Positions 12,786-34,258 of a DNA stretch of 64,000 nt are shown here, one piece after another. Source of the stretch: Spirochaetales bacterium (GTDB lineage: Bacteria; Spirochaetota; Spirochaetia; Treponematales; UBA12059); NCBI GenBank assembly GCA_016926955.1, contig JAFGNN010000080.1:12483-76482 (forward strand), in the 5' to 3' direction. Both the position numbers and the translations under genes were made by a program. Every line of letters begins with the position of its first letter. The stretch's first letter is position 1. The notes under the pieces were generated by a model. That model worked only from the letters and a program-made list of their open reading frames with translations. It ran no database searches and was not told the DNA's origin.

Positions 12786-12791
12786 GCAGGC

Positions 12792-18423: not shown

Positions 18424-19074
18424 GTTTCGATTCCCTCAGCGCTAAGAATGTTGAACACCGCCATTCGGCGGCGTTCTCCGGTTGGGCGCTGAGGGAATCG
18501 CCCTCCGGCTTTCGGCATGCGTCGCTGCGCGCCGCTTTCGGGGATGAGGGGATTGACGTGCCCGCTGTGGCGGGCGACCTCATCCTGCCTCAAGCCTCCG
18601 GGCCGCCTGCGCGGCTTGGGCCGACATGCGTCGCTTCGCTCCGCTTTCAGAGAGGTAATGATTCACGTGCCCGCTTGCGCGGGCGACCTCATCCTGTCGG
18701 CCCATCCTCGACCCGTCCTCAAACGATCGGACAGGTCGAGGACCGCCGCTCCGTTTCAAATCCCTCAGCGCCCCGATTGAAAAAGGCCGCCTTGCGGCGG
18801 CCTCGGTCGTGGGCGCTGAGGGAATCGCCCTCCATGCCTCGGCTTCCTGCCTCGGCTTTCCGGGCCGCCTCGTCGCCTTCGCGCGCCATGCGTCGCTACG
18901 CGCCGCTTTCGGAGTGGAATGGATTGTCGTGGTCGCGCTCCGCGCGACCTCCTCATCCTTGGCGCGCGATCCGCCCGACGCGCTGCGATGTCTCGCGCGT
19001 CGGACGGATCGGCGACTCGGTTCGAATCCCTCAGCGCCCCGATTGAAAAGGCCGCCTTGCGGCGGCCTCGTTGG
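18424..19074. repeat. array of tRNA-Val-3'-end-derived inverted repeats and ~72-nt structured sub-repeats
   Basis: Three compound hairpins: CCCTCAGCGC(CC)...inner GGCCGCC/GGCGGCC stem...GGGCGCTGAGGG at 18431-18497, 18760-18825 and 19021-19090. Three diverged ~72-nt copies (18516-18587, 18625-18696, 18887-18960) all start CATGCGTCGCT and end CCTCATCCT. Confidence 0.85.
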
Positions 19075-19116
19075 TGGGCGCTGAGGGATTCGAACCCCCG
19101 ACCTACTGGGTGTAAA
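19075..19116 (-). repeat. distal att-like direct repeat (copy of tRNA-Val 3' part)
   Basis: The 42 bp TGGGCGCTGAGGGATTCGAACCCCCGACCTACTGGGTGTAAA are identical to 34185-34226, in the same orientation. Confidence 0.95.
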
Positions 19117-19310
19117 TCGTGCTACCGGCTTGGAACGAAAATGTGGCGTCATGAATAAAGTATTGTAAATAAAGCACTTGCAATCAAGCGGATATGAAAT
19201 GAAATGAAACGAAGGGCGCGAAAAGTCGAGAAAACGGGCGATTTTCAGTAACAAATTCAGTAACACGGGGCAGGGCTCGTAAGGATTGACACAACCTACA
19301 ATGGGTAGTG

Positions 19311-19648
19311 TTAATCGAATACGAAGATGGCTTCCTTCGCCTTGAGAGCGAAGCCTTCAAAGAGCAGCTTCTTGACCGCCGGGGTGAACCAAATACCGTG
19401 GTAGACGGTGTAACGGTTTGACTGCGTATCAAAGCCCCCCCGCGAGGCGGGCGTAAATACTCTTCCTGATCAAGCCTGCTCAGGACATAGATGGGCGACT
19501 CCAGCTTATGGCCGTCCCGGTTCGTGGCATGGTCTTCGGAGCTAATGATCCGCTTGCCATAGGAGACGCCGACCTCAAGGTCATAGGTCAATGCGATGAA
19601 GAACGAGTCGAGTCGGCGGGTGAGCCAGCAAGTTCCCACTTCTCCCAA
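19311..19648 (-). pseudogene. small hypothetical gene interrupted at a G7 tract
   Basis: TTG-start ORF (GEVGTCWLTRRLDSFFIALTYDLEVGVSYGKRII...) turns into Ser/Arg/Pro-rich junk after the G7 run (C7 on the + strand, 19435-19441). The frame reached by adding one G reads FDTQSNRYTVYHGIWFTPAVKKLLFEGFALKAKEAIFVFD* and ends at 19311. Confidence 0.45.
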
Positions 19649-19710
19649 AGTAGTCTCATCCTGTGGAACCTCGAATAATTGGATCCGGGAATGGTAGGAC
19701 AGAAACGGAC

Positions 19711-21180
19711 TCAGCGACAGGTTCGCGTCAGGACCTCATGAAGCCTCACCATTGCGAGCGTGTCGAGACCGCAGTAGTCCCTGAGTGCCTTGGCAAGCGA
19801 AGCCTTGCGATCCGGATCCTGCGTCGAAATCAGCTCGGCCCATGCGACCTGGGCATCCTCGCCGTTGCCGACCTCGAGTCCGTCGTAGCCGAGCTCCGGG
19901 CAGAGTACGGGCAGGACGTGCTTGATCGAGCTCGAGCCCTTGAAGGCGGGGTCGAAGTAGTGCTTACGGAAGATATCGAGAAGGTCGACGAACCTGGGCT
20001 GGAACAGGTTGAGGGGCATGGCGAACTCTGGGAGGAATGTAGCGAGTTTGCCGATCACGCTTTTCTCGAAGCTGGCGTTATAAGCGACGATGGAACCGGA
20101 TGATCCGATCTGAGCCAGCAAGGTACGGGCGATCGCGGGGCGGGGATCGCTCAGGTCCTGGTGAAGGAAGCCCGGCGTTTCCTCGAGTCGGCCGTCCTCG
20201 TGGAGGATGTGTAGCGAGAACTGGAACGGAATGCTGCCGAACGGTCCGAGCCCTTCAAGCCGGGGCAAGGCAGGTGCATCCGTCTCGAAGTCGAGGAAGT
20301 GGATCGGATACACCAGCCGCTTGAGCCAGGTGCGGATGCCGTCGACATCGATCTCCTTCGTCCCGGAACGATGGAGCCTCAAGAAGCGCTCACCTTGCGG
20401 TCCGAGCTCGGCGTCAGCCGGGACGTCCTCGAGTGCGAGGATGCCGCGTTCGATGAGGGCGTCGCGTTGTTCGGGATGCATGTGCGGAATGTCGAAAACC
20501 GACGGATCGGGCAGCATCCAGAGTCCGTCGCAGTAAGGACGGAACGGGCACTCGTAGGGCTTCGCGCAACGCGTCCCGAGGTGGACCGCGGGCTCTTGCG
20601 GATTGTCGAGTACAGCCTTCAACTCGGCGAGCTTGCCGGCGACCTCGGGCAGGTGTCGGCGAACGGGATCGGTGAGGTCGGCGAGGGAAAAGAGGTTCGA
20701 GAGGTCCGGGTAACGACAGCTCGTGTTGAGGTGCATGAGGACGGCCCTGCGGATCGGCAGTCCCGAACCTTCGTAGACGTAGGTCTGCACAGCGAGGTCG
20801 AGAATGTGTTCGGGCTTGGGGCCGGTGTTCGACTTCACCTCGTAGACGTCGAAGGATCCGTCGTCGTTCCGGGACAGCACGTCCGCGCGGGCGATGGTGT
20901 CGTCGTGGATGAAACAGGGCTCGAAAAGGACGCGAGCCCCGGCGGAAAGCGCCTCGGTCGTTTCGGTGAGGGCTGCACGCCATTTTAGCGGATCTTCGGA
21001 AATGAGGATGCCGCCAGGAAACCGTTCGCGCGCGAGGCGGCCGACCTCGTGGCCTTGCGAGAAAACACGGGCCCGGGCCGGGGATGGCGGCGGGAGCAGG
21101 TCACGACGATGCGTTTCGAGCCAAAGGCGCTTCGGGCATTGCCGTCCGACGAGGTACTTTGATTTTGAGAGTGTGGTCAT
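19711..21180 (-). CDS. DUF2779-type protein: N-terminal Cas4-like PD-(D/E)XK nuclease with 4 Cys, plus C-terminal DEDD-like exonuclease domain
   Basis: N-terminus LSKSKYLVGRQCPKRLWL. Nuclease motif D...FDVYEVKS. Cys triad CAKPYECPFRPYC. The C-terminal half has IHFLDFETD, AYNASFEKS and YCGLDTLAM acidic motifs. Confidence 0.75.
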   Translation of the reverse strand: MTTLSKSKYLVGRQCPKRLWLETHRRDLLPPPSPARARVFSQGHEVGRLARERFPGGILISEDPLKWRAALTETTEALSAGARVLFEPCFIHDDTIARADVLSRNDDGSFDVYEVKSNTGPKPEHILDLAVQTYVYEGSGLPIRRAVLMHLNTSCRYPDLSNLFSLADLTDPVRRHLPEVAGKLAELKAVLDNPQEPAVHLGTRCAKPYECPFRPYCDGLWMLPDPSVFDIPHMHPEQRDALIERGILALEDVPADAELGPQGERFLRLHRSGTKEIDVDGIRTWLKRLVYPIHFLDFETDAPALPRLEGLGPFGSIPFQFSLHILHEDGRLEETPGFLHQDLSDPRPAIARTLLAQIGSSGSIVAYNASFEKSVIGKLATFLPEFAMPLNLFQPRFVDLLDIFRKHYFDPAFKGSSSIKHVLPVLCPELGYDGLEVGNGEDAQVAWAELISTQDPDRKASLAKALRDYCGLDTLAMVRLHEVLTRTCR

Positions 21181-21255
21181 CCAGTATCTCCGCTGTGCGA
21201 TAGTTCACTTCGCACTGTTTCGGGTTGGCCTCCATTTTTTTCCGGCGGTGATCGG

Positions 21256-21885
21256 TCAGCGCCTGAAATCCTCGCGGTTCCTTCCGACCAGATCAGTGAA
21301 GTAGTCGGCAACCGCCGCGTACTTGCTCTTGTCCACCAGTCCGATCAGTTCTTCCCATTCGAGGACGATGAAAGGTTGTTTGGATTCTCGCGAATAACCT
21401 AAAAGCCGATGGTAATTGCTATCCGGATGGTTCGCCGCCTGCATCACTGCCGTGTGCTTCCGCCTGGTCAGGAGAAGTGCTTGGATGACGTTGATCTGAA
21501 ATTTATCCCTGAGTATCTTGATGCGCTCCGCATTGGCGGTGATATCCTTATCGAAGTTCCAGTCCGTGAGGAATTTTGCCTCGATGGCGATGACCGAGCG
21601 ATTCGCCAAGTCCTCGATCAGGATATCTGCCAATTCACCCTTATCGGATGAATTTTCCAGCAGATAGGAATGGTAGTCGAACGAGGCAAGCAGAGTACCG
21701 TCGAAGTTCTCAAGCTTGAACGTGCTGCCGGATTCTAGAAGCCTCCGGTTGAGCAGCAGGCGCAAAGCTTGCGTCCTGGATTGGTAGCCATCCACGAGCT
21801 CATTCAGGAAGAACCCGGCGAAGAACTTGTAGTAGAGATTCCGTTCTTTCTCCGATTCAAACAGCATCGTCTTATCGAAGATCAT
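21256..21885 (-). CDS. hypothetical protein with PD-(D/E)XK-like motif
   Basis: ELADILIEDLANRSVIAIEAKF fits a D-x(n)-E-x-K nuclease core. ATG 21885 follows a GAGGGGAG RBS. Visibly lower GC than neighbouring genes. Confidence 0.5.
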   Translation of the reverse strand: MIFDKTMLFESEKERNLYYKFFAGFFLNELVDGYQSRTQALRLLLNRRLLESGSTFKLENFDGTLLASFDYHSYLLENSSDKGELADILIEDLANRSVIAIEAKFLTDWNFDKDITANAERIKILRDKFQINVIQALLLTRRKHTAVMQAANHPDSNYHRLLGYSRESKQPFIVLEWEELIGLVDKSKYAAVADYFTDLVGRNREDFRR

Positions 21886-21936
21886 GGCAACTCCCCTCTT
21901 TGTATTGTCAGATCGAGTTTCAAGGAACGACACAAA

Positions 21937-22779
21937 TCATGTCTTGCGAATAAGCGCTACAAACCTGTCCCCCTGCTTCTCAAACCCGTCGACCGACTCC
22001 GCCGCCTTCTCGAGACCGGCAAGCACCTCGGCAAGGATCGATGGGAGCGGTGCGTAGCCGCCTTCGGACTTGGTTCGCTCGAGCGCGGCTTCGACGATGG
22101 GCGGGATGCCGACTTCGTCCCAATCGCCCGAAGGGAAGAAGACGAGGTCGCCGCGTTCGAGCGGCAGCTTGAACGCTTTCCAGCCTCCCTGCATTTCGAT
22201 CATCATGGAGGGCATCATGCCGAGTGGGGGACCTGAGACCAGCTTGAGCTTGCGGCAGGACTTCGTGTCTTCGCGGTAGAGGTATGCGTCTGGACCGCCG
22301 GCGGAGAGCCAGGCCGATTCCCCCGATTGGGATATGACGCCGAGGCCGAGCATGGCGAAGCGCCCGGGAAGACGGCGTTCGAGGAGCGCGTCGTTGTGTT
22401 CCTCGACGAAAGCCTTGAGCTCCCGCGCTCCGGCGTTGGGCTTGAAGCGCTCCGAAAATCGGGCGGCGAGATCCTGGGATTGGAAGGCCGGAACGAGTCC
22501 CCGTCCCGAACATTTGAAGAGCCCGATGGCTCCGCCCCGTTCCGGACCGGGCAGGACGAAGGAAGCCGAGGAAACTTGGTTGGGCAGGACGAGATGGATA
22601 CCCGCCTCGAAAGATCCGAAGGAAGACACCGCGTGCGCCTGCGTGCCGTCGCCCGACGGTTCGGCGCCGAGCAACCTGAGCTGCAAAGCCGCAAGCTGCT
22701 CCACGTGCTCGGGGCCGAAGAGATTCGGGCCGGATGCTGTCCCATTGACCGGTTCCACGGTGCCGTCTTCATCGTGCAT
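21937..22779 (-). CDS. SpoIIE/PP2C-like domain protein with degenerate catalytic motifs
   Basis: Four collinear blocks match the SpoIIE/RsbU pattern: GLFKCSGRGLVPAF (expected DVSGHGxxAA), LSAGGPDAYLY (expected nAGHpPpll), SGPPLGMM (expected g.pLG), and ERGDLVFFPSGDWDE (expected pGD.lllyTDG..E). ATG 22779 follows a GAGGAG RBS. Confidence 0.55.
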   Translation of the reverse strand: MHDEDGTVEPVNGTASGPNLFGPEHVEQLAALQLRLLGAEPSGDGTQAHAVSSFGSFEAGIHLVLPNQVSSASFVLPGPERGGAIGLFKCSGRGLVPAFQSQDLAARFSERFKPNAGARELKAFVEEHNDALLERRLPGRFAMLGLGVISQSGESAWLSAGGPDAYLYREDTKSCRKLKLVSGPPLGMMPSMMIEMQGGWKAFKLPLERGDLVFFPSGDWDEVGIPPIVEAALERTKSEGGYAPLPSILAEVLAGLEKAAESVDGFEKQGDRFVALIRKT

Positions 22780-22921
22780 GTGCGCTCCTCGATGGGATCT
22801 ATCATCTCCGCATCGTTTCCGCGTCGCCGGCGTCGGCGCGACTTCGGTCGGGGTCAAACGATAAGGCATGGTCGGGCTGATTTCCACGTGAAGCCCCGCG
22901 CGAATCCGCGAGCGGCGGTCC

Positions 22922-25255
22922 TTAAGCGCTGAAGCCGATCCTCCGCCCCGCCGGCGCGGCGCGGCAAGCGAGCTCCGCCTCGAGACGGCCGAGGACGAAG
23001 CCGTGCTCGAGCCTGGCGGAGCCTCCGCGGGCGGCTACGACGGGTACGAGGGCCTTGTGCACGGCCGCGAAATCGCCGGGACAGAGTCCTTCGAGCCGCG
23101 CGAGGCGCTCGGACGCGCCTGAGTCCGGCTCGCCGCAGAGCTCGGCGAAGTAGCTTCGGTAGAGCTGGAGTCGCTTCCCGGCGTCAGGCGGGGCGAAGGT
23201 GAGCTTCCACTGGAAACGCCGCATGGCAGCCGCGTCGAAGTCGTCGCGGCGGTTGGTACAGCAGACGAGGATGCCCGCGAAGCTCTCCATCCGGGTGAGG
23301 AGCTCGTTGGTCTGGCTCCGCTCCCAGCCGCGTTCCGCGCGTGCGCGGTCGAGGAAGAGGCTGTCGGCCTCGTCGAGGAGGAGCAGGGCGCCGGACGCTT
23401 CGGCTTCCTCGAAAGCGTCGGCGATGTTCCGCTCGGTGCCGCCCACGAACGGCGAGAGCAGGTCGGACGCGCGCTTCTGGACTAGCGGCAGCTCGAGCGC
23501 GTCGGCGAGCCAGCGTGCGTAGGCGGTCTTGCCCGTTCCCGGGCCGCCCGAGAAAAGGAGCTTGGCTTCGAGGACTTCCGGGGAGCCATCGCATGGGTTG
23601 AGCGGGAGGATCGTTCCCTCTGCGGCGCGCTTTCGTTCCTTGAGGGAGCGGGCGACGTGCTCGAGCCCCGCGCGCAGTTCCTCGAGGCTCGTGTCGACGT
23701 TGAGCGCGCCGGGCAGGTAGCGGGAGTCGCGCGCTTTCCGGAGGCTTTCGGGCGCGCGACGGAGCCCGGTCATGAGCGTCTCGTGCCGCCCCAGGATCTC
23801 CGAGAGTACCGCGAGCGGCTCTCCTTCGGCCAGAGGGTTGCCCGAATCGACGACGCTCCTCAAGGCCCGGAGCGCAGCGTCGATGCCGCCCGCACTCACC
23901 TCGAATTTCTTTGCCAGGGCCTGGACGGATTCCTCGGCGACGACCTTGGCGAGCCCGTAGCCGTCGAGGAGCTCGCGCCATACGCCTTCCCGCGCGCGTT
24001 CGTCCTGGCGCCGGAATTCGAGGCTGTAGACGAAGCGACGCTTGATGGCGTCGTGGACGCCGTCCACCTCGTTGGCGATCCAGACCGTCGCGGGAGAGCG
24101 GGCGTCGAGGAACTCCGCGAGCCAGGCCTTGGCCGCGGCAGCGCCCGGGCGGTCGAGGTCGGCGCCCGCGAGGAAGGATTCGCACTCGTCGACGACGAGG
24201 ACGCCGCCGGAGGCAGCCGCGACGTGGGCGGCCATCTTGAGCCTGAGAAAAGCCGGCTTGTTCTCCGCGTCGGCCCCGCCCGAGCCGAGGACGAAGGCCT
24301 TGAGCCCGGCTTCGCACAGGAGGTTGGCGACGAAGGTCGTCTTGCCCGTGCCGGGCGCGCCATGGACGAGGACGGCGCCGCCGCCGCTCCGCAGCACTGC
24401 CTCGACGATACGGCGCGAAGCCGCGGGCACAGAGAAACGCCCAAGGGGCGCGCGGCGCACGAGAGAATCGGCCATGAAGGTTTCGAGCGGCTTCGCCATC
24501 GTCTGGAGGGAACCTTCGCCCGCGAAGAACTCTCGGAGCTCCTCGGCGAGCACGTAATGGGGCGGGGGAAAGAAGTCCTGGATGACGAAGCCGGGCTTCA
24601 CGAGCTTTCCGTCCGGCGCGAGCATCTCTTTCAGCTCGCGGAGCGGAAGGCTTGAGCAGACGGACAGGACACGCTGGTAGTCCGAGAGCTTGAGGCTGTC
24701 GAGAAGCTCGCGGAAGGCGGGTTCGGACCCCGCGCACCAGATGAAGGTCAGCGTTTCGATTTCGCCTTCCGGAAGCGCGAAGACCGACGCGAGCTTCTCG
24801 CGGTGGGCGAGGAAAGGATCGCAGAGCTCGCGGCCAGCGTGGCTCGTGCGGAAGGCGGCGAGGGTTTCGCGCTCGATCAGGGCCGGGTCGATTCCGGGAC
24901 GCGTGGAACGCGCGCTATCCCGCGATCCGCGCTCCCAGTCAACCCAGGCCGAGACGACGAGGGGGCTGAGCTCCCCGGACCGGCCGGATTCCGCGAACGG
25001 ATTTTCATCGTCGTCCTTCGCGTCCGAACTCTCCGCCGCAGATGCGTTGCCGAGGAGGGCGTGATGGAGCGCGGCGCGCGAGGGCTCGTCAAGGGTGCGC
25101 TCCATCGCCCGGAAAAGCTCCTTCGAGAAGGGCAGGACGAGCCGCGCCCGGTCGAGGTAATACGCCACCAGGTCGAAGAGGGAGGAGCCGTTTTCGGCGG
25201 ACGGGAGGGGCGAACCCTCGCCGTCGGCGAGTATCCTGCGTGGCGCGCTCGACAT
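22922..25255 (-). CDS. large ATPase with two AAA+ modules
   Basis: Module 1: VLVHGAPGTGKTTF with VLVVDECESF. Module 2: LLFSGGPGTGKTAYA with LLLLDEADSLF and a TNRRDDFDAAAMRRF second-region-of-homology-like segment. ATG 25255 follows a GGAGG RBS. Confidence 0.8.
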   Translation of the reverse strand: MSSAPRRILADGEGSPLPSAENGSSLFDLVAYYLDRARLVLPFSKELFRAMERTLDEPSRAALHHALLGNASAAESSDAKDDDENPFAESGRSGELSPLVVSAWVDWERGSRDSARSTRPGIDPALIERETLAAFRTSHAGRELCDPFLAHREKLASVFALPEGEIETLTFIWCAGSEPAFRELLDSLKLSDYQRVLSVCSSLPLRELKEMLAPDGKLVKPGFVIQDFFPPPHYVLAEELREFFAGEGSLQTMAKPLETFMADSLVRRAPLGRFSVPAASRRIVEAVLRSGGGAVLVHGAPGTGKTTFVANLLCEAGLKAFVLGSGGADAENKPAFLRLKMAAHVAAASGGVLVVDECESFLAGADLDRPGAAAAKAWLAEFLDARSPATVWIANEVDGVHDAIKRRFVYSLEFRRQDERAREGVWRELLDGYGLAKVVAEESVQALAKKFEVSAGGIDAALRALRSVVDSGNPLAEGEPLAVLSEILGRHETLMTGLRRAPESLRKARDSRYLPGALNVDTSLEELRAGLEHVARSLKERKRAAEGTILPLNPCDGSPEVLEAKLLFSGGPGTGKTAYARWLADALELPLVQKRASDLLSPFVGGTERNIADAFEEAEASGALLLLDEADSLFLDRARAERGWERSQTNELLTRMESFAGILVCCTNRRDDFDAAAMRRFQWKLTFAPPDAGKRLQLYRSYFAELCGEPDSGASERLARLEGLCPGDFAAVHKALVPVVAARGGSARLEHGFVLGRLEAELACRAAPAGRRIGFSA

Positions 25256-25425
25256 GTCGGCCTCCTTGCGCGATGCTGTCGGCAAGGATATCGGGACAGG
25301 GTGACAGCGATTGACACCGCCGGCCGGTCTCCTGGAAATTCGCGGTGGCTTCCGGAGGTGACGGTTCCTGTCATCGTCGGACGCGATCATGAGGGAAGGA
25401 CCGCAGAAGCGATGGAGGAAGCGCG

Positions 25426-26346
25426 GTGAGCCTGAAGCTCGACAATCTCATCACCCTGTTCGATTACCTCTCGGAGCACCAGTGGCGGAGCGCGGAGCAG
25501 GTGGCGCGCAGGCTCGAGGTGGACCGCCGGACCGTGTTCCGGTACATGGACGAGGTCGAGCTCGCCTTCAGCCCGGTGCCCGTCATCGAGCGCGGGCGCG
25601 AAGGCTACCGCCTCTGCCGCAACGATTTCCTCGACGTGCTCCAGTCGCGCGAGGACTACGCAGGCGTCGCGGCCCTGGTCGCGTCACCCTTAGGAGAATT
25701 GGCGAGCGGCGGCAAGCCCTTGCCGGACCGGCTCCTCAGGCAGGCCCGGGAGCTCGTGGAGACGAGGGCGAGCCTCGAGCCGAAGCTGCTCCGCCAGCTC
25801 TTCGAGGCGATGCGCTCCGGCGTGTTCCTGGAGCTTTCCTACACGGCCAAGGACGAGCCCCGGCCGCACCGCGTCGTCCCGATCAAGTTCGCCTTGCGAT
25901 CCGGCATCCCTTACCTCGTTGCGTTCGACGAAGGCTACGGGCACCTCATCGTGCTCGCCGCGGACAAGATCGGCCGCGCCGCGAAGTCGCGGAAATTCCT
26001 CACCCCCGATGAGCTTTCGTCGCTGCGAACCTACGTCAACTCGGCCTGGGGCGTCATGGTGCGCCACAAGGAGCGCCTCGTGAGCGAGCTCTCGTTCGAG
26101 GCGAACCGATCGGCCGCGGCTTTCTTCGAAAAAGCCCCGCTCCACCCGAGCCAGCGCTGCGAGCGGGAAGGGGAGCGCTTCGTGTTCACCCTCAAGGTCC
26201 ACAGCGAAGGCGAGTTCTTCCGCCACATCCTGCGCTTCGGCCGGGGGGCGCGCGTCGTCGCTCCCGAAAGCGCCATCGCGGAAGCCCGCGCCTTCCTGGC
26301 CTCGATGGGCGAGTTCTATGGTTCCGCCGGCACGGTGGAAGCTTGA
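25426..26346 (+). CDS. WYL-domain transcriptional regulator (HTH-WYL-WCX architecture)
   Basis: N-terminal HTH (WRSAEQVARRLEVDRRTVFRYMDEV). Central WYL-like block (HRVVPIKFALRSGIPYLVAFDEGYGHLIVLAADKI). GTG start after a GGAGGA RBS. Divergent from the AAA+ operon. Confidence 0.8.
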   Translation: MSLKLDNLITLFDYLSEHQWRSAEQVARRLEVDRRTVFRYMDEVELAFSPVPVIERGREGYRLCRNDFLDVLQSREDYAGVAALVASPLGELASGGKPLPDRLLRQARELVETRASLEPKLLRQLFEAMRSGVFLELSYTAKDEPRPHRVVPIKFALRSGIPYLVAFDEGYGHLIVLAADKIGRAAKSRKFLTPDELSSLRTYVNSAWGVMVRHKERLVSELSFEANRSAAAFFEKAPLHPSQRCEREGERFVFTLKVHSEGEFFRHILRFGRGARVVAPESAIAEARAFLASMGEFYGSAGTVEA

Positions 26347-26402
26347 AAGGAAGCGGGGCGCGGCTTACCCTTTCACGAAGAACGGAACGATGAGGTAAGT
26401 AC

Positions 26403-28571: not shown

Positions 28572-28765
28572 TAATCCTCGAAAATAAACAGTCTGGAAAG
28601 CCGTGCCAACATCTGTGCTTGGAAATATATGTGATGAAAAGGAGAAAGGTGAGTGTTGAATCTTAATAGCAAATAATGCATAGCCGTATTTGGGCAGAGT
28701 TGACTGTTTGAATTTGAAGACGATGATGTATTCAAAGATTAGCATTTCCAGAAGAAGGAGTCGTG

Positions 28766-29299
28766 ATGCGTCCTTACAGAAGTATCGACTTGGATGAAGC
28801 GCTGGTCATTGATGAGATTGAGCGGTATCGCCAGGGTATGGAGCTTGGGAATTGCGACTTCATTACTTTTATTCCCACTAGTCCTCGGCAGGAAGGAGTG
28901 GATATTCTCTATTTTAAAAGCCCCATCTATAAGACCATCCAGGTGAAGGGATCACGGGTTTATGATAACCGCAGTAGTCTTCCGACAGCATGGATCGTTC
29001 TACCGGACAAGTATTTCTCAAAAAAAACCTGTCCTGCCATCGACTTCTTTGTTTTTGTCTTCCATGTAGTAGTAGGTGGAAAGCATAAGCCCAAATTCAC
29101 TCAGGAGTATTTGGTGGTTCCGTTTGCTGATATGGATTCATATATAGTAACAAATGGGATTAAATCATCCGGTGGCAAGTATCATTTTGCGTTCGAAATC
29201 GATTTGGCACGAAAGTCTATAATCCAAGTTCGACATAAATTGGTTGCCTTGAGCTCGAGCAACTTCACAAAATACTGGAACAATTGGAGTCAGCTTTGA
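28766..29299 (+). CDS. hypothetical protein, Mrr-like PD-(D/E)XK candidate
   Basis: AT-rich 177-aa ORF with an AAGGAG RBS. GVDILYFKSPIYKTIQVKGS fits a D-x(n)-Q-x-K restriction-endonuclease-like core. Confidence 0.5.
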   Translation: MRPYRSIDLDEALVIDEIERYRQGMELGNCDFITFIPTSPRQEGVDILYFKSPIYKTIQVKGSRVYDNRSSLPTAWIVLPDKYFSKKTCPAIDFFVFVFHVVVGGKHKPKFTQEYLVVPFADMDSYIVTNGIKSSGGKYHFAFEIDLARKSIIQVRHKLVALSSSNFTKYWNNWSQL

Positions 29300-29660
29300 T
29301 TGGATAGCTCTGTCTTGAACTTTTGGTTGTGTCCAGTTAAAAGATAATAATACCGATAAGGTAATTCGCGGCTCGATGGGTGCTTTCGACCGAATTACCC
29401 GAGCAGTATCGGGTGACGAAATATATAGTTGGAGCGCTTGAGGTAAGGTCGGAAAGCTCGATCTAAAAGTCTGAAGGCGAGAGCCGCATCCTGAGGGGGG
29501 CGGCTCTCGCTAAAAGGTGGTAGTTACGAGCTCTCAGCTCCTGAGCGGATCTGTCTGCCGTTCGGGTGATTTGGGCCGGATTTGGGGCCGGATCACATCA
29601 TCTTGTGACATGGGGCTAAACAAAACCGAGGCTGTTCTGATATTACAATCGGGATAGGAA

Positions 29661-30893
29661 TCAAGGCCGGACAACCCGGAATCCGAAATCTTGGACCTGG
29701 GCGGGGGGATAGTAGTGGAATCGAAAAGCCAAGGCGCAGAAAGATGAATCGTTGCCCCAGCTACCTCCGCTCGCGATACGCTCCGTGCCCGAATCCGCCC
29801 CCCGGTAGTCCGTAACCGTACCTGTGGGGTAGTCGCCATACCAGTCCCAAGTCCATTCAAACACATTGCCGCTCATGTCGTAGAGCCCAAGCTCGTTGGC
29901 GCCCGCCGTTTTACTGCCAACGGGATTACTTCTTTCCGTATCGGTCCTTCCAGTTTCGGTTTGGTAATAACCAAAGACGGCATAGTCACCTATTGTATTG
30001 CTCCCGGTGCTCCCTGCAAAAGCTTTTAGGTAACCTGTGGTGTTTATTGCTCCGGGATCGGCAGTATCAGCACCCATGGCTGCCCAGAGCCATTCCATCT
30101 CCGTCGGCAAGCGATAACCATCGGCATTCCAATTGGCGGTTGCCGCATCCCAAACGGCCTGCAAAGCTGGATCAGCGAATCCGGTTGGTATTTGCGGGAA
30201 AGTAAGGGTTGTGAAATCCACTCCACTCACCTCATATACAGGTGTAAGGTCTTCGGTTATGCTCAGCTTGTTGCAGAAAGCAATGGCGTCGTACCAGCTC
30301 GTCATCTGTACAGGGTCTGTAGTGCCGCTTGAGTAGGTCGGATCACTCGGATCTGTAGAGAAAACCGCCGCAAATTGCTCCCTCGTAATTTCATGCGTAC
30401 TTATGCGATATGGTGACGTTATGACGCTGATATTGCTGGCCGTGGCATCCCTTTGAAACCTACCAGCAGGCACGAACTTCAAGATGCCGATATTGGGCGA
30501 ATCGTAATTCTCGCCCCAGGTGGCAGGGAAAACCGCGGTGACCACGCCCGAATCAGCCGGGTTCGAGACGCTCGAAGCCCCTTCAACCTCGAAGAAGTCC
30601 CCGGCAACGCCGGTCAGCGTAAAGCCGGACTTGGGTGTCAGCGTGATGGTAGCGGTATATACCGTGCTGGCTGCAAAGGTAGCCGGAGAGCCGTTCCACG
30701 TGACAGTTCCGGTATACTGGATGGTCTCGGCAATCGCCGTTACCGGGGTGGCGCCATAGACCGGCGCGCTTACTCCATGTATGGCGGCGATGTCGATCAC
30801 CGCATCTGCTGCCGGAGTAACGGGGCTTTGGCATCCAACTAATGAAATAACAGTAAACGCCAGCAGCATCGTGTGCCTCAGTTTTCTATTCAT
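29661..30893 (-). CDS. lipoprotein with FGE-sulfatase (SUMF1/PvdO-type) domain
   Basis: Signal peptide with lipobox (VISLVGC). C-terminal YRLPTEMEWLWAA, GLYDMSGNVFEWTWDWY and GGSW motifs of the formylglycine-generating-enzyme fold. Confidence 0.8.
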   Translation of the reverse strand: MNRKLRHTMLLAFTVISLVGCQSPVTPAADAVIDIAAIHGVSAPVYGATPVTAIAETIQYTGTVTWNGSPATFAASTVYTATITLTPKSGFTLTGVAGDFFEVEGASSVSNPADSGVVTAVFPATWGENYDSPNIGILKFVPAGRFQRDATASNISVITSPYRISTHEITREQFAAVFSTDPSDPTYSSGTTDPVQMTSWYDAIAFCNKLSITEDLTPVYEVSGVDFTTLTFPQIPTGFADPALQAVWDAATANWNADGYRLPTEMEWLWAAMGADTADPGAINTTGYLKAFAGSTGSNTIGDYAVFGYYQTETGRTDTERSNPVGSKTAGANELGLYDMSGNVFEWTWDWYGDYPTGTVTDYRGADSGTERIASGGSWGNDSSFCALAFRFHYYPPAQVQDFGFRVVRP

Positions 30894-31273
30894 TTTCTGG
30901 CTCCTTGAATGGGAAAATGACTAAAGGCTTAAGGAATATTGTATCCATTGAGCCTGTCGTCCATTGCATCGGACAGTTTATTGTAGGTCACATTATTAAA
31001 GGCCGCAAATTCCGGCATGTCGAATTACTCATACAGTCTCGATCCGCTAGCCCGTCTTTCTCAAGGAAGTATTGCCAACCATCGGGAGGGGGGTGAAAAC
31101 CGGACCGCAACCAATAGATGGCTTTGGGGAAGGTGTTTGGCACAAGTGTTCATCTCTTCTCGGAATGACCAACATGCCGGGCAGTAAGTCGCAAGAGTGG
31201 GACAAGGTCTGGATCGGAGTCCTCACCGAGCTCGAATTGACGAGTACTAGGGTCTCTGTGCCAGTCTGGGTCT

Positions 31274-31897
31274 TCACATTATATCAAATGAATGTTTAGA
31301 AAGATCCTCGTGGAGATCGATATCCCTTACATGCAAAGTGATGTTGGTTTCAGAGATATCGCTAAACACAATATTTGGACTAAATCCCATCGCCTGTTCG
31401 ATGACATCGAGCATCGCTTTTTCATAGTAGAGAATATTGCCTCGCTTGAGGCTGTCATGGATTTCATAGTTACCATTGCCTAGATTAATAATGGTGTATG
31501 GGCTTATTACGTCAACCCCATATTGCGAATATGCATCAGCTAAGTATCGATCGCTGATGTTGTTATGACCGATTCCTGCATAGGCAGTCACACCTGACTT
31601 ATTGGAATCACCATTTGAAATGCTTTGAAGATTACTGATTTCCACGTTATTGATCCTAAGATTTCTTTGCATCCACTCAAGTTTTCCATATTTCAACTCA
31701 CATAACAGCCAATCATGGTCATCTTTAGTGAATTTGCTGTGGTTGCTGTCTATATAACTTATACAGTAGCAGTTAATGATCATTCCCTTTAAGTGCTTTT
31801 CGGCACTTTTACTTGTGATTTCTCCTCTGAGCTGAGTTTCGAAATCATTAAGGCTAGAACAAATCTGGCTAATTAAGGACTGGATGGTATAATTCAT
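31274..31897 (-). CDS. hypothetical protein (AT-rich)
   Basis: 207-aa ORF with normal composition in a strongly AT-rich segment. No family recognised. Confidence 0.45.
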   Translation of the reverse strand: MNYTIQSLISQICSSLNDFETQLRGEITSKSAEKHLKGMIINCYCISYIDSNHSKFTKDDHDWLLCELKYGKLEWMQRNLRINNVEISNLQSISNGDSNKSGVTAYAGIGHNNISDRYLADAYSQYGVDVISPYTIINLGNGNYEIHDSLKRGNILYYEKAMLDVIEQAMGFSPNIVFSDISETNITLHVRDIDLHEDLSKHSFDIM

Positions 31898-32241
31898 GTT
31901 CTACTCCTCTTTGCAAGAGAAACAGGTATCAGCGGTTTTGATACTACCCGCGTAGTATCAATCATCAATCGACGGGCCACAAGTAAAAAATAAAACTGCG
32001 TGATGTCGAACCGCGCTTCATGCCTCGTGCCGTCGGCCAGTTCGATCTCGACGAGGTCGAGCCAACCATCGGGGGCGCGGGGCATGAGGCGCTGGCTCAC
32101 GAACTTCCAGTCCCGGTCGCGTTGGCCGAATCGCTGTTCCAGGTACTCGTACTCGAGCGGGACGCCAGTCGCGGAGTCGGGCGCGTGGATGACGACGAAA
32201 TCGCCTTTGTCCTCGAAGCAGGGTGCCGGTCGATTCGTCAT
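31894..32241 (-). CDS. hypothetical small protein translationally coupled to the DUF5131 gene
   Basis: Its ATG overlaps the DUF5131 stop (ATGA at 32238-32241). The GC-rich body (MTNRPAPCFEDKGDFVVIHAPD...FDITQFYF) runs into the AT-rich segment, so the last ~30 codons are probably not native. Confidence 0.45.
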   Translation of the reverse strand: MTNRPAPCFEDKGDFVVIHAPDSATGVPLEYEYLEQRFGQRDRDWKFVSQRLMPRAPDGWLDLVEIELADGTRHEARFDITQFYFLLVARRLMIDTTRVVSKPLIPVSLAKRSRT

Positions 32242-32984
32242 TTCACGAACCCCTTCGGGAACTCGTCCCAAGTCCGGCCGTCGAGCTCGCGGAGCTGGTC
32301 CTTGTGGCTCGTCCCGAGCTGCTTGATGAAGAAGGGAATGCCGTGGCCGATGGCCTGGTCGCGAATCTCGCGGGCCCAGGCGAGATCCAGGGGCCGAGCC
32401 CGTTTCCCGGTCTCGGAGCCGACGATGATCCACTCGAGCGGCAGGTGGGCGGACAAGTCGACGGGGCCGAGGAGCGGCTCGAGGACGACGACCCGGGTGC
32501 CCTTTACCCGCGCGAGTTCGGGCAGGCGCTCGTCGGCGGTGGCCTGGTTCTCGACCGATACAGCGACCGCGAGATGGCCGGGCAGTCCCGCGGGATAGCG
32601 CCGGGTCAGGACCTCGGCCATCCTCCGGGCGCGCTTTGTCCAAAGGAGGTACTTCGGAGTCCTGCGCTTCCGCGCCGCGACAGCGTCGACGATCGAGAGT
32701 ACCGTGTCTATCGTGGCCTCGGGCACCTTTTCCCAAAAGAGGTCGCCGTGCTGGACCACGCCGACGATACCGTTCTTCGGGTACAGCGCATCCTCGGAAA
32801 GGCGCTTCGGGAACGCGTGGGACTCGTCCGGGCGGACCCCGGCGGGGATGTTCCCGAGCCTCTGCTGCCAGGGGAAGATGCCGTCGAGGTACCAACAAGC
32901 TCGGCATCCGGCCGAGTAGCGCTCGCATCCGATGACCGGGTTCCAGTCGCCGCTGAGGACGTCGCCCGGGTTCTTCTTGGCCAT
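32238..32984 (-). CDS. DUF5131 (phage Gp37/Gp68 family) protein
   Basis: N-terminal three-Cys motif WNPVIGCERYSAGCRACW, and the later IIVGSETG and IPFFIKQLG blocks typical of this family. ATG 32984 follows a GGAGG RBS. Confidence 0.7.
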   Translation of the reverse strand: MAKKNPGDVLSGDWNPVIGCERYSAGCRACWYLDGIFPWQQRLGNIPAGVRPDESHAFPKRLSEDALYPKNGIVGVVQHGDLFWEKVPEATIDTVLSIVDAVAARKRRTPKYLLWTKRARRMAEVLTRRYPAGLPGHLAVAVSVENQATADERLPELARVKGTRVVVLEPLLGPVDLSAHLPLEWIIVGSETGKRARPLDLAWAREIRDQAIGHGIPFFIKQLGTSHKDQLRELDGRTWDEFPKGFVK

Positions 32985-33128
32985 GGGCCCTCCTTGAGGG
33001 TCGGATTTCGACCGTCGGAACGAACGATATACCCTTGTGGTGACAATAAGCGTCACCATGACGCATTACCTTGATCGCATTGGTATCCATTCGGGAAACG
33101 CCGGCGGGCCTGAGCCGGCAAGGAGGAC

Positions 33129-33353
33129 ATGATGAGTGTAACGTGCGGCGCGTGTTCGCGCGAGCTCGATCCGGGCCATGACGCTTGCTGGCTCTGCCCC
33201 GACTGCGAGGATCCCCGGGTACTGTTATGCCCCGCGTGCGCCCCGTCGTCGAAGCGCTGCCCTCGCTGCGGGGCCGACCTTTCGTACCGGGAAACGTCCA
33301 TCACCAAGAAGGCCTTCTTCAATCCCGCGACGCGCGGGCTCCTCGGTTTCTAG
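33129..33353 (+). CDS. small multi-CxxC zinc-ribbon protein
   Basis: 74 aa with an AAGGAGG RBS. Five CxxC pairs: CGAC, CWLC, CPDC, CPAC, CPRC. Confidence 0.55.
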   Translation: MMSVTCGACSRELDPGHDACWLCPDCEDPRVLLCPACAPSSKRCPRCGADLSYRETSITKKAFFNPATRGLLGF

Positions 33354-33363
33354 CTGACGCGCG

Positions 33364-34110
33364 ATGGCAGGCGAGGGGGAAATCGCGCTGCTCCCGCGTG
33401 GGGCGGTCCTGTTGCGGAGCATCGACGAGTTCTGGGGGGAGATGTGGGAAGGGGAAGGTGCTTCCTCCGTGGAGATCCGGGTCATCGAGGGAGCGAATGC
33501 CATTGGGGAACTCGACGAGACCCACCGCTACGGCGGCACGGGAGCGCTCCTGGAATCGCGCTACTTCGAGGATGGCGAAGCGGAGCTCGTTCGGACCAAC
33601 CGCTTTAACTCAAGGAGCTATCCGGCGGAGCGGATCAGCCTGCATCCTCGGAACGGCTCGTGGACTCGCTGGCGCATTCGCGAGGTCCAGTTCGAAGGCA
33701 GGCCTGCGGTCGTCGCCGAAATCGATTCGGACCGCAAGGATTCGTCCGCAATGACCGAGGTCTACTTCCTCGACGCGGCCGGCCTCATCGAGGAGTGTCG
33801 CTACCGGTCGGCTTCAGGTTGGGATGAGGATCGCTGGCTCGTCGCGCGTGACGGGCGGGGACGTATCGTCGAGCGGCGCAGCGTCTCTGGCGATGCGTCT
33901 CCCCTGGTGTGGTCGATCGAGCCGGACGGTCACGGGCTGTCGCGCCGCGAGACCATGGTCGGCCGTACGGGCGGACCGGAGGAGGAGCGGCGCTGGTCGC
34001 GGGAATACGACGAAAGGGGTTCCTGGACTCGGGAGCGGCTCGAGGTGTACGAGCTCGCACGCTCGGGAACGGTGCCGGCCTGGACGAGGGTGCGGGTAAA
34101 AAATACATGA
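33364..34110 (+). CDS. hypothetical protein with degenerate YD/MORN-like repeats
   Basis: 248-aa ORF with recurring E/R/W/G-rich short repeats (RYFEDGEAELVR, ARDGRGRIVERR, REYDERGSWTRE). No clear RBS; family not recognised. Confidence 0.4.
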   Translation: MAGEGEIALLPRGAVLLRSIDEFWGEMWEGEGASSVEIRVIEGANAIGELDETHRYGGTGALLESRYFEDGEAELVRTNRFNSRSYPAERISLHPRNGSWTRWRIREVQFEGRPAVVAEIDSDRKDSSAMTEVYFLDAAGLIEECRYRSASGWDEDRWLVARDGRGRIVERRSVSGDASPLVWSIEPDGHGLSRRETMVGRTGGPEEERRWSREYDERGSWTRERLEVYELARSGTVPAWTRVRVKNT

Positions 34111-34184
34111 TTACCCGAGGCTGAGGATCGAGAACGCAATAGGCTTGTGGCCATTTTGCAAAGTCGCTGCTTGCTAATTCCTTA

Positions 34185-34226
34185 TGGGCGCTGAGGGATT
34201 CGAACCCCCGACCTACTGGGTGTAAA
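34185..34226 (-). repeat. proximal att-like repeat within tRNA-Val (anticodon loop to discriminator)
   Basis: Identical to 19075-19116. Confidence 0.95.
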
Positions 34227-34258
34227 CCAGCCGCTCTAACCAGCTGAGCCAAGCGCCC
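34185..34258 (-). tRNA. tRNA-Val (anticodon UAC)
   Basis: The reverse complement folds as a cloverleaf: GGGCGCT/AGCGCCC acceptor, GCTC/GAGC D stem, GCTGG-TTTACAC-CCAGT anticodon arm, GGGGG-TTCGAAT-CCCTC T arm, discriminator A. CCA is not encoded. Confidence 0.93.

What the first reader, a model, noticed from the sequence alone, without database searches (positions are those of the whole stretch)
19075..34226. 15.1-kb tRNA-Val island with perfect 42-bp att-like repeats but no recognisable recombinase
Seen in sequence: the 42 bp from the anticodon loop to the discriminator of tRNA-Val(UAC) (34185-34226) recur identically and in the same orientation at 19075-19116. The DNA between them is accessory and compositionally patchy. 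The flanks (GNAT/prfC, pfkB/lon) look like core genes. Established knowledge: duplication of a tRNA 3' segment marks site-specific integration. Oddity: I found no tyrosine or serine recombinase, excisionase or DDE transposase motif in any long ORF of the island, although the repeats are undecayed. This implies either recent loss of int or mobilisation in trans (satellite-like behaviour).
Basis: partly seen in the sequence, partly recalled or inferred. Interest (0 to 1): 0.7.

Follow-up and report, generated by a model that had tools for sequence, protein, structure and literature searches.

The report
Integrase-less defence island in tRNA-Val
A 15.1-kb block of phage-defence-type genes sits inside the 3' end of a tRNA-Val gene of an uncultivated spirochaete, bounded by perfect 42-bp attachment-site repeats but encoding no enzyme to move itself; this is a known kind of element (a decayed or cis-mobilizable island), with hints that it is still being moved by a recombinase encoded elsewhere.

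Summary
tRNA-Val(UAC) lies at 34185-34258 (minus strand). Its last 42 nt, from the first base of the anticodon loop to the discriminator, recur exactly at 19075-19116, and nowhere else in the window.

A congeneric genome has the empty site: there the intact tRNA is directly followed by the sequence found at window 19018-19074.

The 15,068 bp between the repeats has 60% GC against 69% in the flanks. It carries defence-type genes:
- a DUF2779 Cas4-like nuclease;
- a PP2C phosphatase plus an IetA-like double AAA ATPase;
- a WYL regulator plus a PLD-HerA fusion;
- a DUF5131 / Zn-ribbon / 248-aa module;
- a low-GC variable middle.

HMM scans of all ORFs and of every alternative-frame ORF of at least 50 aa found no tyrosine or serine recombinase, DDE transposase or Xis.

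Versions of the island with the same ends occur in several related metagenome assemblies, also without an integrase in the parts seen. In those assemblies the core is joined to different partners: the island's left end, an unknown element "Y", or a junction that reads like a circle or tandem.

Best reading: a CIME-type island, inserted by a tyrosine-integrase-type crossover and now dependent on a recombinase in trans. A dead relic is the main rival. It is a new member of a known kind, of moderate interest.

The parts
34185..34258 (-). Intact tRNA-Val(UAC). Its 3' 42 nt (34185-34226) is attL, the copy of the core next to the island's right end.
   Evidence: ARAGORN; exact 42-mer. pfkB and lon to the right are syntenic in relatives.
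19075..19116 (-). attR: the displaced 42-nt 3' fragment of tRNA-Val (anticodon loop to discriminator), 42/42 identical to attL.
   Evidence: The same core-to-left-arm junction is seen in L020, L027 and L033.
19019..19074 (-). Native sequence downstream of the tRNA (B'), now 15 kb from the tRNA. It holds an intrinsic-terminator hairpin (stem 19050-19056 / 19061-19067, with the T-run on the minus strand) and a 21-nt inverted copy of the tRNA 3' end (19019-19039).
   Evidence: Contiguous with the intact tRNA in L003/L004. Terminator-like site. Inverted repeat I2, 100% complementary. Folds at -65.9 kcal/mol, z = -9.6.
18418..19018 (.). Left-flank repeat field, not part of the island. It holds two more palindromic units (U1 18426-18506, U2 18755-18833), each built as inverted tRNA end, hairpin, then a 19-24-nt tRNA-end-like arm. 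REP-like hairpin repeats separate them (18513-18587, 18622-18696, 18884-18958).
   Evidence: A REP-like copy also lies at 40743-40810.
19117..34184 (.). Island body, 15,068 bp. It is absent from the empty-site relative. GC is 60.3% against about 69% in the flanks. It has no terminal inverted repeats and no internal copy of the core.
19117..19710 (.). Left arm (P): 594 bp without an intact gene. The first 160 nt are conserved (86%) in other island copies. The window also has a frameshifted ORF remnant at about 19300-19650 (minus strand, broken at a C-run) that is missing from L027.
   Evidence: No Pfam hit for the repaired ORF.
19711..21180 (-). DUF2779 protein (489 aa): an N-terminal Cas4/RecB-like nuclease plus a DEDDh-like domain.
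   Evidence: Pfam 3.6e-37; PADLOC Cas4 8.5e-07; TIGR03491. A homologue with 77% identity lies inside an integrase-bearing element at tRNA-Ala in L030.
21256..21933 (-). 225-aa protein of unknown family. By eye it has a D...IEAK motif like PD-(D/E)xK nucleases (inference only).
   Evidence: No Pfam, PHROG, NCBIfam or PDB match. 80% identical in L027.
21937..22887 (-). PP2C/SpoIIE-type phosphatase (316 aa), immediately downstream of the AAA gene.
   Evidence: Pfam SpoIIE 3.7e-07.
22922..25390 (-). Double AAA+ ATPase (822 aa). Its C-terminal half resembles the anti-phage ATPase IetA/IteA.
   Evidence: Pfam AAA 4e-32; PADLOC IetA 4.3e-33; NCBIfam IteA_antiphage 1.3e-31, below the family cut-off.
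25426..26346 (+). HTH-WYL-WCX transcription regulator (306 aa).
26403..28571 (+). Fusion of a PLD-family nuclease domain and a HerA/FtsK-type ATPase (722 aa).
   Evidence: Pfam PLDc_2 1.4e-10 and DUF87 6.3e-16; PADLOC HerA 6e-34; NCBIfam HerA_antiphage 1.4e-27, below the family cut-off.
28572..31984 (.). Low-GC variable middle (GC3 0.43-0.58). It holds a 178-aa unknown (28763-29299, +), an FGE-sulfatase-domain lipoprotein (29661-30893, -) and a 207-aa unknown (31274-31897, -). In the G_b copy this segment is replaced by other genes of 191, 448 and 109 aa.
32238..33059 (-). DUF5131 (phage Gp37/Gp68) protein. It matches the PADLOC candidate-defence families PDC-M41B and PDC-M30B.
   Evidence: Pfam 1.3e-44; PADLOC 6.8e-38; phrog_2045.
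33129..33353 (+). 74-aa zinc-ribbon protein, always found together with the next gene.
   Evidence: Weak DZR match. Conserved with the 248-aa gene in L013-L018, L020 and L028.
33364..34110 (+). 248-aa protein of unknown family next to the tRNA. The model is all beta-hairpins, which is not a recombinase-like fold.
   Evidence: No family or PDB match. AlphaFold2 gives pLDDT 57 and 16 strands. Orthologues have 81-89% identity.
34111..34184 (.). Right arm (P'): 74 bp between the 248-aa gene and the core. The junction ...GCTAATTCCTTA|TGGGCGC is conserved in every island copy seen.

Best explanation
This is an integrase-less genomic island of the CIME type (cis-mobilizable element: attL and attR kept, recombination genes absent). 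Its cargo is anti-phage-defence-type genes.

How it arrived (inferred from the anatomy): a circular form carried a 42-bp copy of the tRNA-Val 3' part next to its right arm. It recombined with the chromosomal tRNA-Val by a tyrosine-integrase-type site-specific crossover at the anticodon-loop end of the core. The island's copy now completes the tRNA (attL, 34185-34226). The original 3' part, with the tRNA's own terminator, was pushed 15.1 kb away (attR, 19075-19116).

What is shown: the insertion, its exact borders, the empty site in a relative, the conserved ends in other copies, and the lack of any recognisable recombinase.

What is inferred: the recombinase is or was supplied in trans, by another element that uses the same core. 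The unknown 'Y' element that follows the same core in one assembly is a candidate. The island may still be exchanged among related Rectinemataceae spirochaetes.
For: 1. Exact 42-bp direct repeat with tRNA-defined borders.
2. Empty site in L003/L004. The tRNA plus window 19018-19074 is contiguous there (98% over 99 bp) and collinear from 34185 onwards at 84-90%. Eight further intact tRNA-Val loci in metagenomes have the same hairpin-plus-inverted-copy flank.
3. No recombinase, transposase or Xis. This covers the 12 main ORFs, the six-frame translation of regions without a Pfam hit, all 146 alternative-frame ORFs of at least 50 aa, and PHROGs, NCBIfam and PADLOC. The 248-aa protein next to the tRNA is predicted to be all-beta.
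4. No terminal inverted repeats and no internal core copy, so a transposon is unlikely.
5. Both ends are conserved in other copies. Core-to-left-arm junctions occur in L020, L027 and L033. Right-arm-to-core junctions occur in L013, L018, L020, L027 and L028.
6. Signs of recombination at the core.
   - L027 and L028 are 100% identical over 440 bp up to the last base of the core. After that, one continues into the island's left arm and the other into an unrelated sequence Y.
   - In L020 and L027 the island's right end is linked, through about 330 bp plus the core, to its left end, as in a circle or a tandem.
   - The L018 contig stops exactly at the end of the core.
7. The non-coding arms differ by 10-14% between copies, while the two cores in the window are 42/42 identical.
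8. Integrase-bearing elements at tRNA genes exist in related spirochaetes and share the DUF2779 gene (L030: tRNA-Ala, integrase, HTH_17..., WYL, DUF2779).
9. The CIME definition, and accretion with incoming elements, are described in PMC5704250.
Against: - No helper integrase has been identified. None is in the 64-kb window: the 10 ORFs I could not name by eye gave no recombinase family, the other ORFs outside the island were read by eye only, and the L030 integrase has no tblastn match. Only 64 nt of Y are known.
- The circle- or tandem-like junction comes from short metagenome contigs that cross a repeat of about 370 bp. It could be an assembly join.
- The right-arm / core / tRNA 5' half junction is seen only in the window. 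In the longest related contig (L013) the right arm abuts a palindrome arm that shares only the first 18 nt of the core (19 in L020, L027 and L028). That needs a further rearrangement which this model does not predict.
- A perfect 42-mer is only weak evidence for recency (P about 0.05-0.15 under neutrality).
- No relic of conjugation or replication genes shows that the island descends from an ICE or IME.
Confidence: 0.55

Rival explanations
1. Dead relic. The island was inserted by its own tyrosine integrase. The int/xis module was later deleted, and the island is now a fixed, vertically inherited part of the chromosome. It changes only by deletion, by cassette replacement, and by homologous or illegitimate recombination among the local tRNA-end palindromes.
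For: - Island proteins differ between genomes about as much as core proteins do. Island, window vs G_b: 85-97%. Core, window vs G_a: pfkB 90%, Lon 97%.
- The island is mosaic. GC3 runs from 0.43 to 0.90 and the middle is replaced in G_b.
- G_b has lost the left 3.8 kb.
- The left arm holds a frameshifted ORF remnant.
- The right-arm junction to a palindrome arm in L013 looks like recombination across 18 bp of shared sequence rather than a site-specific event.
- A perfect 42-mer is not improbable by chance.
Against: - No integrase pseudogene is left in any frame.
- Strain-identical contigs differ exactly at the core boundary (L027 vs L028).
- The relative's empty site is exact.
- Both cores are perfect although the arms have diverged by 10-14%.
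Confidence: 0.3
2. No site-specific integration at all. The 42-bp copy is one more local duplication of the tRNA 3' end and its terminator (like units U1 and U2). The 15 kb came to lie between the copies by homologous recombination or another rearrangement.
For: The region holds three copies of the unit 'inverted tRNA end, hairpin, tRNA-end arm', in tandem units of 265-330 bp. Related genomes show these units in different orders.
Against: - U1 and U2 share only 19-24 nt with the tRNA, which is the extent of the palindrome. The 42-mer runs on exactly to the anticodon-loop border, a classical crossover sublocation.
- The same core-to-arm junctions recur in independent assemblies.
- The empty site is exact.
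Confidence: 0.05
3. The island encodes its own recombinase of an unrecognised kind. A candidate is the WYL-regulated PLD-HerA fusion (the PLD domain belongs to a phosphodiesterase family and is joined to a DNA translocase), which is conserved in all copies seen. Another is the DUF2779 Cas4-like/DEDDh nuclease at the left end.
For: No known recombinase is present, yet the ends are conserved and polymorphic junctions exist. PLD-HerA and WYL are the best conserved island genes (96% identity).
Against: - These proteins match families listed as anti-phage defence.
- The DUF2779 gene is absent from the G_b copy. Elsewhere it sits in an element that has a normal integrase.
- The core has the anatomy expected for tyrosine integrases.
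- No precedent is known to me.
Confidence: 0.05
4. Assembly artefact. The element is really an episome carrying attP and the chromosome is empty. The MAG assembler threaded the circle into the tRNA through the shared 42-mer.
For: - The window comes from a metagenome-assembled genome.
- Short-k Logan contigs of the same sample break inside the 42-mer.
- Circle-like junction contigs exist in other samples.
Against: - A 42-bp repeat is shorter than ordinary reads and than the final k of common assemblers (own knowledge).
- The core-to-left-arm junction with the chromosomal hairpin flank is independently assembled in L020 and L027.
- In G_b the island lies in a 47-kb chromosomal contig.
Confidence: 0.03

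Closest known systems
CIMEs (cis-mobilizable elements), e.g. those next to ICESt1/ICESt3 in Streptococcus thermophilus. Definition from PMC5704250 and bioRxiv 10.1101/2022.11.18.517082; the example is from my own knowledge.
   Same: Flanked by attL and attR derived from the 3' end of the target gene. No integrase, excisionase or transfer genes. Found at a site that other elements also use. Tandem or composite arrangements occur.
   Different: Described almost only in Firmicutes (31 entries in ICEberg). Those are recognisably decayed ICEs or IMEs sitting next to a known helper ICE. Here the host is an uncultivated Rectinemataceae spirochaete, no helper is known, no ICE relic is visible, and the cargo is defence-type genes.
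tRNA-integrated genomic islands as catalogued by Islander (PMC4383910)
   Same: An intact tRNA at one end and a displaced 3' fragment at the other. [quoted passage not shown] Composition is atypical. The island is absent from a relative.
   Different: Those islands are defined with an integrase gene, usually next to the tRNA. Here the gene next to the tRNA is a 248-aa all-beta protein, and no integrase exists anywhere in the 15 kb.
Phage satellites and mobilizable islands (PICI, P4-like, and the MGIs mobilised by SXT/R391); from my own knowledge
   Same: Small islands at fixed att sites that depend on a helper for part of their life cycle and often carry defence genes.
   Different: Those encode their own integrase, and usually replication and packaging-redirection or oriT functions. 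None of these was found here.
Defence islands and hot spots next to tRNA genes (general concept)
   Same: WYL regulator, HerA-type ATPase with a nuclease, IetA-like ATPase, Cas4-like nuclease and a DUF5131 candidate system are clustered. A variable cassette is swapped between strains.
   Different: None of the PADLOC systems is complete by its own definition. The AAA ATPase is paired with a PP2C phosphatase, not an IetS protease. HerA is fused to PLD rather than paired with SIR2 or DUF4297 (pairings from my own knowledge).

Membership tests
tRNA-integrated genomic island (Islander-type) | Intact tRNA gene at one end, with a displaced fragment of the same tRNA as a direct repeat at the other | tested here: met
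   42/42 identity, same orientation.
tRNA-integrated genomic island (Islander-type) | Uninterrupted site in a related genome | tested here: met
   L003/L004: the tRNA is contiguous with window 19018-19074.
tRNA-integrated genomic island (Islander-type) | Tyrosine (or serine) integrase gene inside the island | tested here: not met
   Pfam, PHROGs, NCBIfam and PADLOC on all ORFs and all alternative frames.
CIME (cis-mobilizable element) | Retains attL and attR | tested here: met
   Perfect 42-bp repeats.
CIME (cis-mobilizable element) | Lacks recombination and conjugation genes | tested here: met
   No integrase or Xis. No relaxase or T4SS family appeared among the Pfam hits.
CIME (cis-mobilizable element) | Derived by decay from an ICE or IME | tested here: inconclusive
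   Only the DUF2779 gene is shared with an integrase-bearing element (L030). No relic of int or transfer genes remains. A frameshifted ORF of unknown family lies in the left arm.
CIME (cis-mobilizable element) | Excised or transferred by the integrase of another element that uses the same att site | not testable with these tools
   Suggestive only: core-boundary polymorphism (L027 vs L028, 100% identical over 440 bp) and circle- or tandem-like junctions (L020, L027).
Phage satellite (PICI / P4-like) | Own integrase, plus replication/primase and helper-interference genes | tested here: not met
   No such families. No match in IMG/VR to the core or the right-arm junction. No megablast match in phage records.
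Transposon / casposon | Terminal inverted repeats, a short target-site duplication, and a transposase or Cas1 | tested here: not met
   The inverted-repeat score is below the shuffle mean. The duplication is 42 bp and tRNA-defined. No DDE, HUH or Cas1 family.
Complete known defence systems (IetAS; HerA-SIR2 or HerA-DUF4297) | Both partner genes of the system present | tested here: not met
   The IetA-like ATPase has no IetS protease next to it; a PP2C phosphatase is there instead. HerA is fused to PLD. The NCBIfam scores are far below the family cut-offs.

The most novel reading that the evidence does not exclude
The island moves itself with a recombinase of a kind not yet recognised. The best candidate is the WYL-controlled PLD-HerA fusion, which is conserved in all copies seen and whose PLD domain belongs to a phosphodiesterase family. 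If so, perfect att repeats and exchanging junctions exist without any tyrosine recombinase, serine recombinase or DDE enzyme. A milder version has a probability of about 0.3: an integrase-less defence island is actively shuttled among uncultivated spirochaetes by an unidentified helper that uses the same tRNA-Val core.
Probability: 0.05. Interest if true: 0.85.

Novelty: new member of a known kind. Interest (0 to 1): 0.35.

Why it matters
Islands that keep both att sites but have no integrase are rarely catalogued, and almost all known cases are in Firmicutes. Tools such as Islander and ICEfinder need an integrase, so they miss them. This one is well delimited and lies in an uncultivated spirochaete lineage. 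It has an exact empty site, several sequence-diverged copies, and contigs in which the same core is joined to different partners.

If the junction polymorphism is real, it would show that a defence-gene cargo is spread by a borrowed recombinase. It would also offer a way to find the helper, starting from the 'Y' element. If not, this is an ordinary decayed island. Either way it adds no new principle.

Tried and rejected
- **Recombinase search.** I scanned the 12 main ORFs, the six-frame translation of regions without a Pfam hit, and all 146 alternative-frame ORFs of at least 50 aa. I also ran PHROGs, NCBIfam, PADLOC and PDB sequence searches on the unknown proteins. Nothing was found.
- **248-aa protein next to the tRNA as a cryptic recombinase.** Rejected. 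The model is all-beta, and the gene also occurs with its Zn-ribbon partner away from any att site in L015-L017.
- **Integrase elsewhere in the window.** The ORFs I could not name by eye have no such family. The L030 integrase has no tblastn match.
- **DNA beyond the window edges.** This failed: one look-up returned only a short Logan contig, and the other protein was not on record.
- **The 42-mer in GTDB species genomes.** There were four hits, all single intact tRNAs. The window's own genome is not in that set, and no genome has two copies.
- **IMG/VR.** No hits for the core, the right-arm junction or Y.
- **Plasmid and phage records.** No megablast match to the island.
- **Transposon reading.** Rejected: no terminal inverted repeats.
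- **U1/U2 right arms as decayed older att cores.** I considered this, but the similarity stops where the palindrome stops (19-24 nt). I now treat them as copies of the terminator palindrome.
- **An integron-like reading of the palindromes.** I considered it and dropped it without a test. No intI is present, and the units derive from the tRNA end.

Full report
**1. The observation**

ARAGORN places tRNA-Val(tac) at 34185-34258 on the minus strand. The 42-mer TGGGCGCTGAGGGATTCGAACCCCCGACCTACTGGGTGTAAA occurs exactly at 19075-19116 and 34185-34226, in the same orientation. There are no other copies even at 3 mismatches, and none in 100 shuffles.

In tRNA numbering the repeat starts at the first base of the anticodon loop (nt 33, with the anticodon at 35) and ends at the discriminator. 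Identity stops on both sides. The tRNA points towards lower coordinates, so the 15,068 bp between the repeats lies downstream of the tRNA, as expected for an element inserted in its 3' part.

**2. It is an insertion**

pfkB homologues place the organism in the Rectinemataceae (Spirochaetota). The window's own 248-aa protein is on record from an NCBI MAG labelled Spirochaetales bacterium (locus tag JXA15_13080, contig of 115 kb).

I refer to the genomes compared as follows:

| Label | Source |
|---|---|
| G_w | the window's genome |
| G_a | GCA_018262985.1 contig JADFDI010000014.1 (L003/L009) and a Logan contig from SRR13447936 (L004); 84-90% DNA identity to the window |
| G_b | GCA_017994525.1 contig JAGOKR010000017.1 (L013) |

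- G_a is collinear with the window from 34185 rightwards, through pfkB, lon and beyond.
- On the other side of its intact tRNA-Val, G_a continues directly with the sequence found at window 19018-19074 (98% over 99 bp).
- That sequence is the tRNA's own intrinsic terminator followed by a 21-nt inverted copy of the tRNA 3' end.
- Eight more intact tRNA-Val loci from metagenomes, and one from a GTDB genome, show the same kind of flank.

So the window shows the chromosomal flank, the core, the island, then the core within the tRNA. That is an attR ... attL arrangement, and relatives carry the empty attB.

**3. What the island carries**

GC is 60.3% against about 69% in the flanks. Gene GC3 ranges from 0.43 to 0.90 against 0.85-0.93 in core genes.

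| Coordinates (strand) | Gene | Evidence |
|---|---|---|
| 19711-21180 (-) | DUF2779 | Cas4/RecB-like plus DEDDh-like |
| 21256-21933 (-) | 225 aa, unknown | no match |
| 21937-22887 (-) | PP2C/SpoIIE phosphatase | Pfam SpoIIE |
| 22922-25390 (-) | double AAA ATPase | IetA/IteA-like C-terminal half |
| 25426-26346 (+) | WYL-WCX regulator | Pfam, PADLOC |
| 26403-28571 (+) | PLD-HerA fusion | Pfam, PADLOC, NCBIfam |
| 28572-31984 | low-GC stretch: 178-aa unknown, FGE-sulfatase lipoprotein, 207-aa unknown | Pfam FGE-sulfatase only |
| 32238-33059 (-) | DUF5131 | PADLOC PDC-M41B / PDC-M30B |
| 33129-33353 (+) | 74-aa Zn-ribbon protein | weak DZR match |
| 33364-34110 (+) | 248 aa, unknown | no match |

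This is the make-up of a defence island. No catalogued system is complete.

**4. No recombinase**

- Pfam on all main ORFs gave no recombinase.
- Neither did Pfam on the six-frame translation of every region without a Pfam hit.
- Neither did Pfam on all 146 alternative-frame ORFs of at least 50 aa (alignment A1).
- PHROGs, NCBIfam and PADLOC gave no tyrosine or serine recombinase, DDE or HUH transposase, Cas1 or excisionase.
- The unknown proteins have no PDB relatives.
- The 248-aa protein next to the tRNA, where an integrase usually sits, is predicted to be an all-beta hairpin repeat (pLDDT 57). It also occurs elsewhere without any att site (L015-L017).
- There are no terminal inverted repeats and no internal core copies.
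- The rest of the window looks like housekeeping by eye. The ORFs I could not name by eye have no recombinase family.

**5. The island elsewhere**

*G_b (L013).* This contig carries window 22912-28559 at 93% and 31985-34202 at 91.7% DNA identity. That covers AAA, WYL, PLD-HerA, a different middle, DUF5131, Zn-ribbon and the 253-aa gene. The left 3.8 kb is missing and a periplasmic-binding-protein gene stands there instead. Protein identities to the window are 85-97%, about the same as for core proteins between G_w and G_a. No integrase is called in G_b.

*Right junction.* The junction ...GCTAATTCCTTA|TGGGCGC... is conserved in L013, L018, L020, L027 and L028.

*Left junction.* The junction ...GGGTGTAAA|TCGTGCT... 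is conserved in L020, L027 and L033.

*What follows the right arm differs between contigs:*
- In L018 it is the full 42-mer, with one T-loop difference. The contig ends exactly at the end of the core.
- In L013, L020, L027 and L028 it is only the first 18-19 nt of the core. The sequence then runs into a palindrome arm, REP-like hairpins, another hairpin, and then a full core.
- After that full core, L020 and L027 continue into the island's left arm (DUF2779, the 225-aa gene, SpoIIE, AAA, WYL). L028 continues into an unrelated AT-rich sequence Y.
- L027 and L028 are 100% identical over the 440 bp up to the last base of the core.

*Reading.* The island's right end is linked to its left end as in a circle or a tandem. 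In the same sequence background the partner of the core changes exactly at its anticodon-loop border. That is what site-specific recombination would produce. But these are short metagenome contigs crossing a repeat of about 370 bp, so an assembly join is not excluded.

**6. Mechanism**

[quoted passage not shown] The element brings its own copy of the 3' part, which restores the gene (PMC4383910, abstract).

I therefore infer a tyrosine-integrase crossover. The element itself fits the definition of a CIME: attL and attR kept, integration and transfer genes lost, and mobilisable by another element that integrates at the same site (PMC5704250).

Two facts favour present or recent action in trans over simple decay.
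- The junction polymorphism described in section 5.
- The arms of different copies have diverged by 10-14%, while the two cores in the window are 42/42 identical. This second point is weak: P(0 changes) is roughly 0.05-0.15.

Integrase-bearing elements at tRNA genes exist in related spirochaetes and share the DUF2779 gene. L030 reads tRNA-Ala(cgc), integrase, HTH_17..., RadC, Gam, SSB, WYL, DUF2779, ParA. Only that one gene is shared, however, and the L030 integrase has no match in the window.

**7. What does not fit neatly**

- In G_b and its relatives the right arm abuts a palindrome arm that shares only 18-19 nt with the core. This needs a recombination between attL and one of the local palindromes. 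It could be homologous or illegitimate, or site-specific if the enzyme acts at the T-arm.
- The left flank of the window holds three such palindromes (U1, U2, and the native one) in tandem units of 265-330 bp with REP-like hairpins. Their order differs between genomes.
- I could not reconstruct one unique history.
- The GNAT/prfC side is not conserved next to tRNA-Val in the relatives I could see. G_a has a 735-aa double AAA ATPase there, 33% identical to the island's.

**8. Verdict**

The object is a well-delimited, integrase-less, CIME-type defence island at tRNA-Val: a new member of a known kind. Interest is moderate (0.35). It would rise if read-level data confirm circular or tandem junctions and identify a helper.

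Noticed in passing
window 19019-19096; also L004, L021-L026, L029: tRNA-Val is followed by its terminator hairpin and then a 21-nt perfect inverted copy of its own 3' end (T-loop, T-stem and acceptor strand). Together they can form a hairpin with a 21-bp stem (-65.9 kcal/mol, z = -9.6). The feature is kept in distant relatives and co-varies. Loci with GGGAATCGAACC in the tRNA have GGTTCGATTCCC in the inverted copy; loci with GGGATTCGAACC have GGTTCGAATCCC. Its function is unknown. It could reflect gene conversion, a termination or processing structure, or an attB feature.
   Followed up: partly
window 18418-19018 and 40743-40810: There is about 600 bp of tandem units (265-330 bp). Each has REP-like GC hairpins plus a palindrome made of a copy of the tRNA end. 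One REP-like copy lies 22 kb away, and in L003 at 7054-7126. The order and number of units differ between related genomes.
   Followed up: partly
L004 158-2365 (relative G_a): In the empty-site relative, the gene beyond the repeat field is a 735-aa double AAA ATPase. It is 33% identical to the island's 822-aa ATPase, and a short ORF follows it in the position of the PP2C gene. So the tRNA-Val neighbourhood holds related defence-type cargo even where this island is absent.
   Followed up: partly
L030 1240-17594; L031: An integrative element at tRNA-Ala(cgc) in a related metagenome carries integrase (458 aa), HTH_17, RadC, Mu Gam, SSB, DUF6573, WYL, DUF2779, ParA and an Eco57I-type enzyme. A sister contig (L031) carries AAA plus Peptidase_S8, an IetA/IetS-like pair. 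Only the DUF2779 gene (75% DNA identity) is shared with the window.
   Followed up: partly
window 28560-31984 vs L013 6265-8621: The low-GC middle of the island (178-aa unknown, FGE-sulfatase lipoprotein, 207-aa unknown; GC3 0.43-0.58) is replaced in G_b by three other genes (191, 448 and 109 aa, with no Pfam hit on record). The borders on both sides are conserved. This looks like a cassette-exchange spot inside the island.
   Followed up: no
window 19300-19650 (minus strand): An ORF of about 130 aa is broken by a frameshift at a C-run. It is present in the window's left arm but largely absent from L027 and L033 (about 210 bp shorter there). The repaired protein has no Pfam match.
   Followed up: partly
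L021 1165-2867 vs window 1857-19116: In one relative, tRNA-Val lies about 630 bp from the CYTH and phosphoglycerate-mutase genes. In the window, about 14 kb separates them from the tRNA (dapE/B/A, lysA, DUF1295, ACR3, prfC, GNAT). So the left side of the tRNA-Val locus has been rearranged on a larger scale as well.
   Followed up: no
L001 and L002 (Logan SRR13394437, same strain as the window): The two short-k contigs that carry the window's exact GNAT and pfkB genes end at 19102 and start at 34220, both inside the 42-mer. This is expected for a repeat longer than k, and it gives no evidence for or against other junctions.
   Followed up: yes
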